Positions 33,609 to 41,080 of a stretch of 64,000 bases of DNA are shown one piece after another. This DNA comes from Polyangia bacterium (GTDB taxonomy: Bacteria > Myxococcota_A > Polyangia > Palsa-1104 > JAEUJZ01). The notes beneath the pieces are model-generated. The model made no database searches. It had not been told where the DNA came from and was given only the letters and a program-made list of their open reading frames with translations. The stretch is from NCBI GenBank assembly GCA_044228505.1, contig JBGAUT010000014.1, positions 14,725 to 78,724 of the forward strand, given 5' to 3'. A program made the position numbers and the translations under genes. The first letter of the stretch is position 1. Each line of letters begins with the position of its first letter.

Positions 33609-36059
33609 ATGCGTTTCAAGAGACTAATAACCATGCGGCTGGCCAGTAGGATCCTCTCTCTGTGTGCATTGCTCGTTGCCACTTGCGAAGGTCCAGTTGG
33701 ACCAAACGGTCCCACGGGAACGCAAGGCCCGGTAGGTAGTGATCCGGTTTCCTGTGATCCGACGTTGAACGGATTGCATGCGGAACTCTCACTTAGCCCA
33801 CCAGCACAGGGTACGTACTACAGAGCCGGAGAAGCTCCGCAGCTTACCGTCCGCTTGCTCAGTGGCTGCCAAAAGCTTCTAGCCCCAAGTGAACTTGGCA
33901 CCGCCAACTTATACCTTGTGGGACCACGCGGTGCACTCACCACCCGCAGCGCCAATCAGCTCCTGAACGCAGTCACAGATCGCGCTGCCAAAGATCGCCA
34001 GCATCACTTCATCAATTTGAAGAACCCGTCCTACGCCAATCCGAATGCTGGTGGACTCAAGAGTTCGCAGGACGGAACGCTGCTATATCAGCTATCGCCG
34101 ATCACCAATGAGACGGCGGGTACCTATACGGTAGGGCTGTGGGCCAAGTCAACGGATGAGCAGCAGCAGATCTTCCCTCTCCTCGATTTCCAGATCGGAA
34201 CCGCAACGGTCGAGACCTACGCGTCCGGCGATCCGCAGTCCTCAAGTTGTGCGGACTGTCACAAGGGACCAGATACCGGCAAGCTGTACATGCATCACAT
34301 CGCGCCGGGGTTCTCTCCGCTGGGAAACTGGGCGCTCGATCAATTCCCCATAGCGACCTGCAAGCTCTGCCACAACCAAGACGGTTACAGTCCGAACACC
34401 ACCGTACGCAAGGTTCACGCAGTACATCGGGGGGAGCATCAACTGCGGGCGGGCGAAGCACATCCGGAGTATGGCGTCCCGGCCGATGCTTCGCTGGCAC
34501 TCTATCTGAACGTTGGCTTCCCATCGATGCCCGATCTGGAAAAGGACTGTAGCAAGTGTCACCGGGATGAGCGAAACCTCAAGCAACCATCTCGACAGGC
34601 CTGCGGTGCATGTCATGATGCTCTGTTCTTCGACACCGGAACCGTGAATCCACCTCGCCGGTATACCGGTGCCTGCGTTGTTGATGCAGACTGCGCAAGT
34701 AGGAGCAGTCTTGCCACCTGTAATACCGCCGTCAGTCTCTGTGAGACGGCGACCCATCCCAAACAGAGTGATGACTCCCAATGCATCACCTGTCATTCTG
34801 CTGACACGACCGGCATCTCGCCGATTCCTGACAAGCACGATGTGGTCACCCGTACTCGCGTCCGCAAGATCAAGCTGAGCGAAGTCTCGATCAGCGGGGG
34901 GTCTGGACCGCTCGGTGCGATGATGGTTGGGGACCTACCTCGGATTAGCTTCAAGCTGCTCGATGGAACGGGTGCACCCGTTACCGATCTCAAGACCAAT
35001 ACTGCCTTGTCTGGCACGCTTCTTATTGGTGGCCCCACAGACGATCGACAGATGGTGTTTCCATCGATCTCGATCAAGACCGGCACGGGTCTGGCGTTTG
35101 ATGCCGCTTCGAACGTCTACACGTATACCCATACCGCCGCCTGGCCAGCGAATGCGCAGACTCCGCTGAACAGTACGGGTCTGACACCGCGACCCAATCC
35201 CGCAGGAACCTACTCTGCCTGGCTCTACGTCGTTGAAACTTCTACCTATAAAGGTGCCTCCGTTCGTGATGTAGGAACCGCACTCATCGACTTTCGGGTC
35301 GGTGGCTCACAAGCAGTTCGTCCGCGTCATGTCATCACCCGCGATTCGTGCAACTCGTGCCACGTGATTGCCCAAGCCCACGGTGGGAGTCGGCGTGATG
35401 CGGAGGGCTGCTCGATCTGTCACACAGCGGGTGCTGTTGATCGCACAGTAGGAGCCCGGGGCGTCGCCTGCACCACCAACAGCCAATGTGGAGGATCAGC
35501 TGCGGGTTGGGAAAGCTGTCAGGACACCAATGCGGACGCTAAGCTCGATACCTGCGTGCTGACTGTCGATCCGACGCCCGGACAGACCATCCTGTTTTCT
35601 TCGATGATCCACTCTACGCACTATGCGCGTCGGCTGGGTGGATACGCGGAACGGAGCAGCCTGGTGAAGCCGTTTGCGCTTACGTACATCGGGAACTCGA
35701 ACCGGGTAAATGACTTTTCGGAGATTCTGTTTCCACAAGACATTCGCAACTGCAGCAAGTGTCACGGCGACTCGGGAGCAAGCTGCTCCGCTTCGATGCC
35801 CTGTGGAATCGGTCAGAGCTGTCTATCCGGCAAATGCAAAAACGTCGCCTATCAAGATGCCAACACCGCCGCTTGTCTCGGATGTCACGACACTGCAGCG
35901 GCAGCCGGACACGCAGCACTGATGACCTGGACCGATCCGATGGGTAAGCCGGTGGAGACCTGCGAGGTCTGTCACGGTGCCACCGCAGAGTTCGCGGTCA
36001 GCAAGGTTCACAACATCAGCAGCCCCTACAAGCCCCCCTACTCCCGCGAGAAGGAGTAA
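33609..36059 (+). CDS. decahaem c-type cytochrome, probable lipoprotein
   Basis: Ten CxxCH motifs. Signal peptide with lipobox-like LVATC. GGGAAGGGAG RBS. Confidence 0.8.
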   Translation: MRFKRLITMRLASRILSLCALLVATCEGPVGPNGPTGTQGPVGSDPVSCDPTLNGLHAELSLSPPAQGTYYRAGEAPQLTVRLLSGCQKLLAPSELGTANLYLVGPRGALTTRSANQLLNAVTDRAAKDRQHHFINLKNPSYANPNAGGLKSSQDGTLLYQLSPITNETAGTYTVGLWAKSTDEQQQIFPLLDFQIGTATVETYASGDPQSSSCADCHKGPDTGKLYMHHIAPGFSPLGNWALDQFPIATCKLCHNQDGYSPNTTVRKVHAVHRGEHQLRAGEAHPEYGVPADASLALYLNVGFPSMPDLEKDCSKCHRDERNLKQPSRQACGACHDALFFDTGTVNPPRRYTGACVVDADCASRSSLATCNTAVSLCETATHPKQSDDSQCITCHSADTTGISPIPDKHDVVTRTRVRKIKLSEVSISGGSGPLGAMMVGDLPRISFKLLDGTGAPVTDLKTNTALSGTLLIGGPTDDRQMVFPSISIKTGTGLAFDAASNVYTYTHTAAWPANAQTPLNSTGLTPRPNPAGTYSAWLYVVETSTYKGASVRDVGTALIDFRVGGSQAVRPRHVITRDSCNSCHVIAQAHGGSRRDAEGCSICHTAGAVDRTVGARGVACTTNSQCGGSAAGWESCQDTNADAKLDTCVLTVDPTPGQTILFSSMIHSTHYARRLGGYAERSSLVKPFALTYIGNSNRVNDFSEILFPQDIRNCSKCHGDSGASCSASMPCGIGQSCLSGKCKNVAYQDANTAACLGCHDTAAAAGHAALMTWTDPMGKPVETCEVCHGATAEFAVSKVHNISSPYKPPYSREKE

Positions 36060-36064
36060 CAGCC

Positions 36065-40466: not shown

Positions 40467-40477
40467 GCGGAGGACCC

Positions 40478-41080
40478 ATGCTAGCGTTCCTGTTCGGTCT
40501 GTCGATCCTGCTTACGGCAGTGTTGGTGATTCGGCCCTCGCAGACCAGCAAAGCGCTGGCTTTCACCAGCCTGTTCGTGCTGCCGCTCACGGTCAGCTAC
40601 ATGGGAGTTGAGACGCACATCGAGAATTCCAAACAGACCACCTTCTGTACCTCCTGCCATGTAATGGGGAAGCACGGACGCAGCTTGCTCGTGGATGACA
40701 CCACGATTTTGGCGGCCTCTCACTATCAAGGAGGACGGATTCCTCGTGATCGCGCCTGCTTCACTTGCCACACCACCTACACGATGTATGGCGATATGCA
40801 GGCCAAGCTAAGAGGGGTCAAGCACGTGCTCGTCAACTACTTTGGCAAGGTACCTGACAAGCTAAAGCTCTACGAGCCGTACCACAATCGAGAGTGTCTG
40901 CACTGTCACCAAGGAGCGCGTCGCTATCTAAAAGGAGAGACTCACACCGCTGAGCCTGACCGCATGGAAAAGATGCGCCTGAATCAGCTCTCCTGTGTTA
41001 GCAAGGACTGTCACGACACCGTGCATCTGGCAAACGAGGTGGATAGCTTGCCGCTGTGGAAGCCGGAGGGAGTCAAGTGA
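40478..41080 (+). CDS. membrane-anchored tetrahaem cytochrome, NapC/NirT/NrfH-like quinol dehydrogenase
   Basis: N-terminal TM helices. Haem motifs CTSCH, CFTCH, CLHCH and a CVSKDCH variant. GGAGGA RBS. Confidence 0.6.
   Translation: MLAFLFGLSILLTAVLVIRPSQTSKALAFTSLFVLPLTVSYMGVETHIENSKQTTFCTSCHVMGKHGRSLLVDDTTILAASHYQGGRIPRDRACFTCHTTYTMYGDMQAKLRGVKHVLVNYFGKVPDKLKLYEPYHNRECLHCHQGARRYLKGETHTAEPDRMEKMRLNQLSCVSKDCHDTVHLANEVDSLPLWKPEGVK

What the first reader, a model, noticed from the sequence alone, without database searches (positions are those of the whole stretch)
33609..41080. Porin-cytochrome style multihaem cluster resembling an extracellular electron transfer conduit
Six consecutive plus-strand genes make up the cluster. 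They are a 10-haem lipoprotein, a 12-haem lipoprotein, a beta-barrel protein, a 13-haem cytochrome, a class I monohaem cytochrome, and a NapC/NrfH-like membrane tetrahaem quinol dehydrogenase. The beta-barrel gene overlaps its upstream partner by 23 bp and its downstream partner by 4 bp. That tight coupling mirrors Geobacter-type porin-cytochrome complexes (OmbB/OmaB/OmcB), in which a periplasmic multihaem cytochrome, a porin and an outer-membrane lipoprotein cytochrome form a trans-outer-membrane wire fed from the quinone pool.
Basis: partly seen in the sequence, partly recalled or inferred. Interest (0 to 1): 0.7.

Follow-up and report, generated by a model that had tools for sequence, protein, structure and literature searches.

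The report
Myxobacterial porin-cytochrome electron conduit cluster
This is a six-gene operon from an uncultured myxobacterium that most likely builds a haem "wire" through the outer membrane; it expands a two-gene module already reported in Anaeromyxobacter, so it is a new variant of a known kind of system, not a new kind.

Summary
Six tightly packed plus-strand genes (33609-41080) encode 41 candidate c-haem sites and one cysteine-free outer-membrane protein.

- **Barrel (g3):** AlphaFold2 predicts a 22-strand barrel with no plug and short loops (pLDDT 87). It matches no Pfam, NCBIfam or PDB sequence family.
- **Conserved core:** In all 39 related loci with enough downstream sequence, the barrel gene is followed by a ~350-aa, 11-13-haem cytochrome (g4). 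In 35 of 45 it is directly preceded by a CxxxxCH-type multihaem lipoprotein (g2).
- **Link to known systems:** g3 and g4 are homologous (33% and 45% identity) to the two-gene barrel-plus-12-haem pair of cultured Anaeromyxobacter. That pair fits the "Group IV" porin-cytochrome clusters of Shi et al. 2014.

- g4 is a predicted lipoprotein, not a soluble periplasmic protein.
- g2 has 11 CXXCH plus 2 CX4CH sites.
- g1 belongs to the MtrC/OmcA kind and starts with a short collagen-like segment.
- The NapC-like g6 has 3 CXXCH plus 1 CX4CH.

The direction of electron flow and the substrate are unresolved. The invariant His/Met monohaem g5, together with the NapC-like g6, also recalls the Mto iron-oxidation pathway.

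Verdict: new variant of a known kind, of moderate interest.

The parts
33609..36059 (+). g1: 816-aa decahaem lipoprotein of the MtrC/OmcA kind. The lipobox Cys26 is followed by 6 collagen-like Gly-X-Y triplets. Haems fall in two groups of five (214-392 and 581-785).
   Evidence: 10 CXXCH and lipobox LVATC. PF22113 MtrC/MtrF domains II/IV scores 96.6 bits against a cut-off of 30, in 2 stretches. TIGR03507 OmcA/MtrC scores 177 bits, below its cut-off of 209. MtrF 3pmq matches at E 4.5e-10. Gly-X-Y run. RBS-like GGGAAGGGAG lies upstream.
36065..37729 (+). g2: 554-aa multihaem lipoprotein with 11 CXXCH plus 2 CX4CH sites (CxxxxCH/CxxCH domain family). Proposed outer-face partner of the barrel.
   Evidence: Motifs. 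TIGR01904 scores 81.5 bits against a cut-off of 27; PF09698 scores 39 bits. The lipobox Cys and the atypical CX3/CX4CH sites (two per protein) are conserved in about 40 homologues. It lies directly upstream of the barrel in 35 of 45 loci and downstream of g4 in five others, directly after g4 in four of them.
37707..38981 (+). g3: 424-aa outer-membrane 22-strand beta-barrel with no plug, no Cys and very short loops. The likely true start is Met5 at 37719. Proposed sheath for the cytochrome wire.
38978..40039 (+). g4: 353-aa cytochrome with 13 CXXCH, built from c7-type units, and a predicted lipoprotein (Cys20). It is the obligate partner of the barrel and the proposed inserted wire.
   Evidence: All 13 CXXCH, Cys20 and 12 further His are invariant in 53 homologues, and a 13th His is 90% or more conserved. 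Lipoboxes. The profile hits the GSU1996 hexahaem fragment 3ouq at E 1e-12 and c7/PpcA; MtrA only at E 0.005. It follows the barrel in all 39 testable loci: 38 directly, 1 about 600 nt away. It is 45% identical to the Anaeromyxobacter partner.
40083..40466 (+). g5: 127-aa periplasmic class I monohaem cytochrome c, with His/Met ligation inferred. Proposed periplasmic shuttle.
   Evidence: PF00034 scores 38.4 bits against a cut-off of 21.3; PF13442 scores 34.1 against 27. It has a single His. Met102 is invariant in 29 homologues. A homologue is present in 32 of 45 loci.
40478..41080 (+). g6: 200-aa NapC/NirT-family membrane cytochrome. It has two hydrophobic segments separated by an Arg/Lys loop, 3 CXXCH plus 1 CX4CH sites, and CXXCHXM at the first site. 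Proposed link to the quinone pool.
   Evidence: PF03264 scores 38.6 bits against a cut-off of 24.1. TIGR03153 NrfH scores 41 bits, below its cut-off of 134. Motifs and transmembrane layout are conserved in the homologues aligned. A homologue is present in only 8 of 45 loci.
41056..41334 (+). Possible small two-helix membrane protein overlapping the end of g6. Membership of the system is uncertain.
   Evidence: ORF. A 64-aa gene overlaps the g6 homologue in the same place in L001 and L002. Nucleotide similarity to L001 runs through to 41257. No family match.

Best explanation
The six genes form one operon that encodes a porin-cytochrome (Pcc-type) electron conduit connecting the inner-membrane quinone pool to the cell exterior.

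Proposed path:
1. g6, a NapC/NirT-type membrane cytochrome, exchanges electrons with quinol.
2. g5, a soluble His/Met monohaem cytochrome c, carries them across the periplasm.
3. g4, a 13-haem rod of c7-type units anchored by a lipid tail, sits inside the 22-strand plug-less barrel g3 and spans the outer membrane.
4. g2 (13 candidate haems) and the MtrC/OmcA-like decahaem g1, both lipoproteins, receive the electrons on the outer face and pass them to an extracellular acceptor such as Mn(IV) or Fe(III) oxides, or humic substances.

What is shown: the gene anatomy, haem-site counts, lipoboxes, the barrel fold, family memberships, the conserved g2-g3-g4 gene order, and homology to the Anaeromyxobacter two-gene pair.

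What is inferred: insertion of g4 into the barrel, surface exposure of g1 and g2, the order of carriers, the direction of flow, and the substrate.
For: - Haem-site density and secretion signals in five proteins.
- g3 is a confident 22-strand barrel whose best structural matches are TonB-receptor barrels, yet it has no plug domain and only short loops. Such a pore would be wide open unless a partner fills it. This last point is my inference.
- The barrel gene is followed by a g4 homologue in all 39 loci with enough downstream sequence, and usually flanked by a g2 homologue, often with overlapping stop and start codons. The pairing persists in distant family members at E about 1e-50.
- The most conserved barrel segments are loops (153-162 and 251-270), not strands, which fits a protein-protein interface.
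- g3 and g4 are 33% (E 2e-62) and 45% (E 4e-85) identical to the barrel plus 12-haem pair of Anaeromyxobacter spp.. That pair matches the two-gene pcc clusters of Shi et al. 2014, whose cytochrome Adeh_3392 rose under Mn(IV)-reducing conditions (PMC4245776).
- g1 matches MtrC/MtrF haem domains.
- Where g6 is absent, related loci carry other inner-membrane quinol modules next to the cluster: Rieske/cytochrome b in L003, and a CbcL-like cytochrome b plus multihaem fusion with a larger NapC-like protein in L005.
- The cluster meets the three criteria used to define Geobacter conduits (PMC6148476), with one caveat: g4, which fills the periplasmic-cytochrome criterion, carries a lipobox.
Against: - There is no experimental evidence for this family beyond one proteomic observation in Anaeromyxobacter.
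- g4 carries an invariant lipobox, unlike soluble MtrA or OmaB, so its side of the membrane is not known.
- The g4 structure model is only moderate (pLDDT 71.7, pTM 0.48), and its fold search gave nothing useful.
- No complex could be modelled.
- A His/Met monohaem (g5) is expected to have a rather positive potential. That is awkward on the way to low-potential Fe(III) oxides.
- g6 is present in only 8 of 45 loci and g1 in 14 of 45, so the full six-gene layout is clade-specific.
- Promoter and terminator scans were no better than chance.
Confidence: 0.7

Rival explanations
1. Same trans-outer-membrane conduit, but run inward. It would take electrons from extracellular Fe(II), reduced humics or minerals and deliver them through g5 to an oxidase or bc complex, and through g6 to the quinone pool. 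This is how the MtoAB-MtoD-ImoA pathway of Sideroxydans works.
For: - g5 is a class I monohaem with an invariant Met ligand, so it is probably of fairly high potential. It is kept in 32 of 45 loci.
- The g5 plus g6 pair mirrors MtoD (class I monohaem) plus the NapC/NirT tetrahaem ImoA of the Mto uptake pathway (PMC4412085; bioRxiv 10.1101/2022.01.10.475773).
- L003 has a Rieske/cytochrome b complex next to the cluster.
- Many carriers come from peat, fen and palsa metagenome bins, where iron and humic redox cycling is plausible.
Against: - Known oxidising conduits lack an MtrC-like surface cytochrome (noted in bioRxiv 10.1101/2022.03.26.485925). Here g1 and g2 add 23 candidate outer haems.
- The Anaeromyxobacter relative was linked to Mn(IV) reduction.
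- MtoD is bis-His, and g5 shows no specific similarity to it.
- Multihaem conduits are reversible, so sequence cannot decide direction.
Confidence: 0.2
2. The barrel is not an electron sheath. It would be either a dedicated exporter or assembly pore that puts the lipoprotein cytochromes on the surface, or a substrate channel. The cytochromes would act as a periplasmic or surface redox network, or as an electron store, for a soluble substrate.
For: - All three large cytochromes are lipoproteins, and surface lipoproteins need an export route.
- The barrel has no detectable sequence relation to MtrB.
- A UniRef label on the A. oryzae homologue reads 'Alginate export domain-containing protein'.
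Against: - The strict one-to-one coupling of the barrel with one particular ~350-aa cytochrome holds across hundreds of family clusters, including two-gene loci that have no other lipoprotein to export.
- No catalytic-type haem motif (CXXCK) is present in the six proteins, and no catalytic enzyme family among them or the nearest flanking genes.
- No member of the barrel alignment reaches the Alginate_exp model or any other Pfam model.
Confidence: 0.08

Closest known systems
Anaeromyxobacter two-gene porin-cytochrome clusters (Pcc 'Group IV' of Shi, Fredrickson & Zachara 2014, PMC4245776; cytochrome Adeh_3392)
   Same: The barrel and the ~350-aa 12-13-haem cytochrome are homologous: 33% identity at E 2e-62 and 45% at E 4e-85. 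The order is the same, barrel then cytochrome with abutting or overlapping codons, and the phylum is the same. Sizes and haem numbers fit the paper's 338-344 aa and 12-14 haems.
   Different: Anaeromyxobacter has only the two genes. The window adds a CxxxxCH multihaem lipoprotein, an MtrC/OmcA-like decahaem, a monohaem c and a NapC-like protein. The paper called the cytochrome periplasmic, but a lipobox is conserved here. I did not verify locus tags, so equating L052/L054 with the published genes is an inference.
Geobacter sulfurreducens conduits OmbB-OmaB-OmcB and ExtABCD/ExtEFG (PMC6148476)
   Same: Same logic: an outer-membrane beta protein of 18-22 strands, a multihaem partner, and one or more lipoprotein cytochromes in one cluster. 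g2 carries the CxxxxCH/CxxCH domain first defined in Geobacter. g4 is built from c7-type units like Geobacter GSU1996 and PpcA.
   Different: No sequence comparison with OmbB, ExtB, ExtE or ExtI was possible here. The inner partner is a lipoprotein. The gene order differs. An MtrC-type cytochrome is present, which the Geobacter clusters described in that paper do not contain.
Shewanella MtrCAB/OmcA with CymA
   Same: g1 matches the MtrC/MtrF pentahaem domains II and IV, with two groups of five haems. g6 is in the NapC/NirT family, like CymA. The overall wire-in-a-barrel idea is the same.
Sideroxydans MtoAB-MtoD-ImoA (CymA-ES1) electron-uptake pathway
   Same: A porin-cytochrome clustered with a class I monohaem cytochrome and a NapC/NirT tetrahaem protein.
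   Different: Mto uses an MtrA/MtrB-type pair and has no outer lipoprotein cytochrome. MtoD is bis-His, whereas g5 is inferred His/Met.

Membership tests
Porin-cytochrome (Pcc) cluster, sensu Shi et al. 2014 and Jimenez Otero et al. 2018 | [quoted passage not shown] | tested here: met
Porin-cytochrome (Pcc) cluster, sensu Shi et al. 2014 and Jimenez Otero et al. 2018 | Adjacent gene for a multihaem (5-14 haem) periplasmic c-type cytochrome | tested here: inconclusive
   Adjacency and haem count are met: 13 CXXCH, a 4-bp overlap, and conservation in all 39 testable loci. However, g4 has an invariant lipobox Cys, so it is lipid-anchored and its side of the membrane is unknown.
Porin-cytochrome (Pcc) cluster, sensu Shi et al. 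2014 and Jimenez Otero et al. 2018 | One or more outer-membrane lipoprotein cytochromes in the cluster | tested here: met
   g1 and g2 have conserved lipoboxes with 10 and 13 candidate haem sites. Surface exposure itself could not be tested.
Porin-cytochrome (Pcc) cluster, sensu Shi et al. 2014 and Jimenez Otero et al. 2018 | Sequence homology to a described Pcc group | tested here: met
   g3 is 33% and g4 45% identical to the Anaeromyxobacter barrel and 12-haem pair. Equating that pair with published Group IV rests on layout and size. Geobacter groups were not tested.
Porin-cytochrome (Pcc) cluster, sensu Shi et al. 2014 and Jimenez Otero et al. 2018 | [quoted passage not shown] | not testable with these tools
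   This needs proteoliposome or genetic experiments.
MtrCAB | MtrB/PioB-family barrel (26 strands, about 650-700 aa) | tested here: not met
   Neither g3 nor any of 54 family members matches any Pfam model. The family profile finds no PDB sequence, MtrB 6r2q_B included. g3 has 22 strands and 424 aa.
MtrCAB | MtrA-type decahaem periplasmic cytochrome | tested here: not met
   g4 has 13 haems. Its profile matches c7-type proteins at E 1e-12 and MtrA 6r2q_A only at E 0.005.
OmcA/MtrC decahaem family (TIGR03507 / PF22113) | Ten CXXCH in two pentahaem domains matching the curated models | tested here: inconclusive
   PF22113 scores 96.6 bits against a cut-off of 30, in 2 stretches. TIGR03507 scores 177.4 bits, below its cut-off of 209.3. 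MtrF matches at E 4.5e-10. The beta-barrel domains I and III were not modelled.
NapC/NirT/NrfH quinol dehydrogenases | N-terminal membrane anchor, four haem sites, and a match to PF03264 | tested here: met
   PF03264 scores 38.6 bits against a cut-off of 24.1. There are two hydrophobic segments, and 3 CXXCH plus 1 CX4CH sites are conserved. It is below the NrfH and NapC equivalog cut-offs, so it belongs to the family but not to those named subfamilies. Quinol oxidation was not testable.
Class I cytochrome c | Single N-terminal CXXCH plus a distal Met, and a match to PF00034 | tested here: met
   PF00034 scores 38.4 bits against a cut-off of 21.3. Met102 is invariant in 29 homologues.
CxxxxCH/CxxCH domain cytochromes (TIGR01904) | Paired CX4CH ... 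CXXCH domains above the curated cut-off | tested here: met
   TIGR01904 scores 81.5 bits against a cut-off of 27, in 2 stretches. There are two CX4CH sites.

The most novel reading that the evidence does not exclude
This may be a distinct, Myxococcota-wide conduit architecture with two unusual features. First, every large cytochrome is a lipoprotein, and the barrel is loaded by a lipid-anchored 13-haem c7-type rod, with no soluble periplasmic cytochrome. Second, the terminal MtrC-like decahaem hangs from a collagen-like Gly-X-Y stalk of 4 to 22 triplets, depending on lineage. That stalk could form a trimer and hold about 30 haems at a tunable distance from the cell surface. I found no description of such a cytochrome in the literature searched.
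Probability: 0.25. Interest if true: 0.7.

Novelty: new variant of a known kind. Interest (0 to 1): 0.5.

Why it matters
Myxococcota are abundant in soils, peat and sediments, and surveys have flagged them as rich in unclassified multihaem cytochromes. This cluster helps in four ways:
- It ties a large unannotated barrel family (901 representatives, no Pfam model) to a defined partner cytochrome.
- It links that family to the only studied relatives, in Anaeromyxobacter.
- It shows how the two-gene core is extended with Geobacter-type and Shewanella-type modules.
- It offers a concrete marker set (barrel plus ~350-aa 12-13-haem lipoprotein) for finding extracellular electron transfer potential in metagenomes. 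Anaeromyxobacter is a culturable relative in which the core could be tested genetically.

Tried and rejected
- The AlphaFold database fold library (afdb50) was not available, so no named structural neighbours from Geobacter could be obtained.
- The g4 model was only moderate (pLDDT 71.7), and its Foldseek search against PDB gave no significant match.
- Single-sequence PDB searches with g2 and g6 gave only noise or very weak NrfH similarity. For g5 they gave only generic class I cytochromes and nothing specific to MtoD.
- Looking up ten distant barrel representatives returned no organism names.
- The exact g3 product is not in the contig index.
- Promoter and terminator scans did not exceed shuffled controls.
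- Literature searches for collagen-like multihaem or decahaem cytochromes found nothing relevant.
- I rejected an MtrAB-type assignment for g3 and g4.
- I rejected a catalytic reductase reading: no CXXCK motif in the six proteins and no catalytic enzyme family among them or the nearest flanking genes.
- There are no tRNA genes in the window.
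Full report
**1. Observation**

Six plus-strand ORFs lie at the coordinates given. The haem-site counts are as follows.

| Gene | Coordinates | Length | Haem sites | Other |
|---|---|---|---|---|
| g1 | 33609-36059 | 816 aa | 10 CXXCH | lipobox LVATC |
| g2 | 36065-37729 | 554 aa | 11 CXXCH + 2 CX4CH | lipobox WGAGC |
| g3 | 37707-38981 | 424 aa | none | no Cys |
| g4 | 38978-40039 | 353 aa | 13 CXXCH | |
| g5 | 40083-40466 | 127 aa | 1 CXXCH | |
| g6 | 40478-41080 | 200 aa | 3 CXXCH + 1 CX4CH | |

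- The g2/g3 overlap is 23 bp with the first ATG. It would be 11 bp from the nearly invariant Met5, which is where related loci call the gene.
- The g3/g4 overlap is 4 bp. The other gaps are 5, 43 and 11 bp, which fits one operon.
- Consensus promoter and terminator scans were no better than chance.
The "tetrahaem" g6 has 3 canonical plus 1 atypical site. The atypical sites recur in the homologues: two per g2-type protein, as CX4CH or CX3CH, and one CX4CH in every g6 homologue.

**2. The proteins**

- **g1.** It matches the MtrC/MtrF pentahaem-domain model PF22113 (96.6 bits, two stretches). It also matches the OmcA/MtrC model TIGR03507 at 177 bits, just under the curated cut-off of 209, and MtrF (3pmq) at E 4.5e-10. 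Its ten haems fall in two groups of five.
- **g2.** It is a CxxxxCH/CxxCH-domain cytochrome (TIGR01904, 81.5 bits against a cut-off of 27). It has no relative of solved structure.
- **g4.** All 13 CXXCH, 12 further histidines and Cys20 are invariant in 53 homologues, and a 13th histidine is at least 90% conserved. The cysteine sits in a classical lipobox throughout. The family profile matches the hexahaem fragment of Geobacter GSU1996 (3ouq, E 1e-12) and c7/PpcA. It matches MtrA only at E 0.005. So g4 is a lipid-anchored chain of c7-type units with enough conserved histidines for bis-His ligation of all haems. Its AlphaFold2 model was only moderate, and its fold search was uninformative.
- **g5.** It is a class I cytochrome c with a single histidine and a methionine that is invariant in 29 homologues. 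I infer His/Met ligation from this.
- **g6.** It passes the NapC/NirT model PF03264 (38.6 bits against 24.1) but not the NrfH or NapC equivalog cut-offs. It has two hydrophobic segments separated by an Arg/Lys-containing loop. By the positive-inside rule, this places the haem domain in the periplasm. It also has a conserved CXXCHXM at the first site. From memory, that is the motif that ligates the quinol-site haem in Desulfovibrio NrfH.

**3. Relatives and gene context**

- The barrel has 177 close hits in the 5.8-billion-protein collection. All are unnamed or labelled "hypothetical", and the labelled ones come from Myxococcales or Polyangia bins.
- A profile search of 1.84 billion cluster representatives finds 901 at E of 0.001 or less, and 259 at 1e-30 or less.
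- In species-representative genomes, 44 loci carry the barrel. Apart from one 255-base fragment, all are metagenome bins: most are labelled Myxococcales, Polyangia, Archangium, Anaeromyxobacteraceae or Bradymonadaceae, and a few carry only broad delta- or Proteobacteria labels. One is 96% identical to the window.
- Of 45 loci with a substantial barrel match, 39 have at least 1.2 kb downstream. A g4 homologue follows directly in 38 of these and about 600 nt away in the other.
- A g2 homologue lies directly upstream in 35 loci and downstream of g4 in five others, directly after g4 in four of them. g5 homologues occur in 32, close g1 homologues in 14, and g6 homologues in 8.
- Two distant barrels (E about 1e-50) still show the order barrel, ~350-aa cytochrome (4-bp overlap), then a ~550-570-aa multihaem cytochrome that carries the CxxxxCH domain in L050.
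- Where g6 is missing, other inner-membrane modules sit beside the cluster. L003 has a Rieske/cytochrome b/multihaem set. L005 has a cytochrome b plus multihaem fusion of the CbcL type and a larger NapC-like protein.
- The invariant unit is therefore barrel plus g4. g2 is nearly always attached, and the outer and inner ends are exchangeable.

**4. Link to what is known**

I used the Anaeromyxobacteraceae locus L044 as a bridge. That search found barrel homologues in cultured Anaeromyxobacter: a multispecies protein, and one in the A. oryzae genome AP025591.1.
- The window's barrel is 33% identical to the multispecies protein over its full length (E 2e-62).
- In those genomes the barrel (443 aa) is followed at once by a 348-360-aa lipoprotein with 12 CXXCH, and nothing else.
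- g4 is 45% identical to that cytochrome (E 4e-85).

This layout matches the two-gene pcc clusters that Shi et al. 2014 reported for three Anaeromyxobacter strains. Those clusters have a porin-like protein plus a 338-344-aa cytochrome with 12 or 14 haem motifs, form their Group IV, and the cytochrome Adeh_3392 was more abundant under Mn(IV)-reducing conditions (PMC4245776). I did not check locus tags, so the equation is an inference from size, order and taxon.

The cluster also meets the three criteria used for Geobacter conduits (PMC6148476), apart from the lipobox on the inner cytochrome. A lake survey had already noted that Myxococcota bins hold the most unclassified multihaem clusters, together with MtrC, ExtABC and CbcL hits (bioRxiv 10.1101/2022.03.26.485925).

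**5. Mechanism**

The best-supported reading is a Pcc-type conduit. Electrons pass between the quinone pool and g6, cross the periplasm on g5, traverse the outer membrane on g4 held inside g3, and reach g2 and g1 on the outside. That is 41 candidate haems in all.

The argument for insertion is indirect:
- A 22-strand barrel with no plug and minimal loops should not be left open.
- Its most conserved segments are loops (153-162 and 251-270), not strands.
- Its gene is translationally coupled to g4 almost everywhere.

Thirteen closely spaced haems would give a rod longer than the membrane is thick. This is my inference from known multihaem spacing.

Direction is open. The MtrC-like cap and the Mn(IV) link in Anaeromyxobacter favour outward flow. 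The conserved His/Met monohaem and the g5 plus g6 pairing recall MtoD plus ImoA of the Sideroxydans uptake pathway, and they favour either inward flow or high-potential acceptors.

My confidence estimates:
- About 0.7 that this is a trans-outer-membrane conduit.
- Within that, a modest preference for outward flow.
- About 0.2 for the inward reading.
- Under 0.1 that the barrel is instead a lipoprotein exporter or substrate pore. The two-gene loci argue against this, since they have nothing else to export.

**6. Novelty and score**

The kind of system is known, and its core was reported bioinformatically in 2014. The following are new here:
- The extended six-gene architecture, which mixes a Pcc core with an MtrC/OmcA-type cap and a CxxxxCH cytochrome.
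- The finding that the inner cytochrome is a lipoprotein.
- A 22-strand structural prediction for an unannotated family of about 900 clusters.
- The collagen-like tether on the decahaem cap.

I rate it a new variant of a known kind, with interest 0.5.

**7. Limits**

- I made no comparison with Geobacter OmbB or Ext sequences.
- The AlphaFold database fold library was unavailable.
- No multimer modelling was possible.
- No experiments were possible.

Noticed in passing
window 33684-33743 (g1 residues 26-45); homologues in L003, L013, L014, L017, L022, L041, L043, L049 and others: In g1 and every related decahaem lipoprotein, the lipobox Cys is followed at once by 'EGP' (DGP in one) and a run of collagen-like Gly-X-Y triplets. 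The run is 6 triplets here and 4-22 in relatives. Every ORF in the fetched loci with 8 or more triplets is a decahaem cytochrome. Pfam Collagen (PF01391) reaches up to 37.7 bits in the long versions. In most homologues a Cys follows the repeat. This may be a trimeric stalk. I found no literature on it.
   Followed up: partly
window 16387-17955 and 31308-32672; element about 17954-31310: A bacterial major-vault-protein-like gene (MVP shoulder and Vault_3 domains; 1004 aa and intact in L001) is split here. The N-terminal half lies at 16387-17955 and the C-terminal half at 31308-32672. A 13-bp direct repeat, AAGAGCGGCATCT, sits at both junctions (17941 and 31311). A tyrosine integrase (30051-31304, minus strand) lies at the right end. 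This looks like a ~13.4-kb integrative element inserted into the gene.
   Followed up: yes
window 10760-16351: About 5.6 kb lies between two blocks that are contiguous in the related contig L001 (L001 1840 to 1978). This is a second insertion or deletion difference upstream of the vault-like gene.
   Followed up: no
window 42720-44857: A BNR/sortilin-like repeat protein gene is absent from the otherwise syntenic L001. It reads as two overlapping ORFs in different frames (42722-43360, with a lipobox-like N-terminus, and 42901-44922). This suggests a frameshift or a sequencing error.
   Followed up: no
window 7164-8831 and 9089-10756: Two tandem 555-aa paralogues. The protein matching the second copy aligns to the first at 54% identity. 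L001 carries one such gene, with no Pfam family on record.
   Followed up: no
window 32732-33325 (minus strand) and 41384-42685: An EF-hand calcium-binding protein sits just upstream of the cytochrome operon, and a membrane adenylate/guanylate cyclase sits just downstream. They are syntenic only in the closest relatives (L001, L002). They may be regulatory neighbours or just neighbours.
   Followed up: no
g1 residues about 357-392, 620-660 and 720-745 (window about 34677-35845): g1 has 15 cysteines beyond the haem motifs and the lipobox. They cluster in short Cys-rich inserts within the haem domains, for example SCSASMPCGIGQSCLSGKCK. It has none in the stretch between haems 5 and 6. From memory, Shewanella MtrC-type proteins carry a CX8C disulfide in that region.
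   Followed up: no
L003 2616-5500; L005 3354-7678: In related loci, the NapC-like g6 is replaced by a divergently transcribed Rieske/cytochrome b/multihaem set (L003). In L005 it is replaced by a CbcL-like cytochrome b plus multihaem fusion and a 495-aa NapC-like protein. The inner-membrane feeder module appears to be exchangeable.
   Followed up: partly
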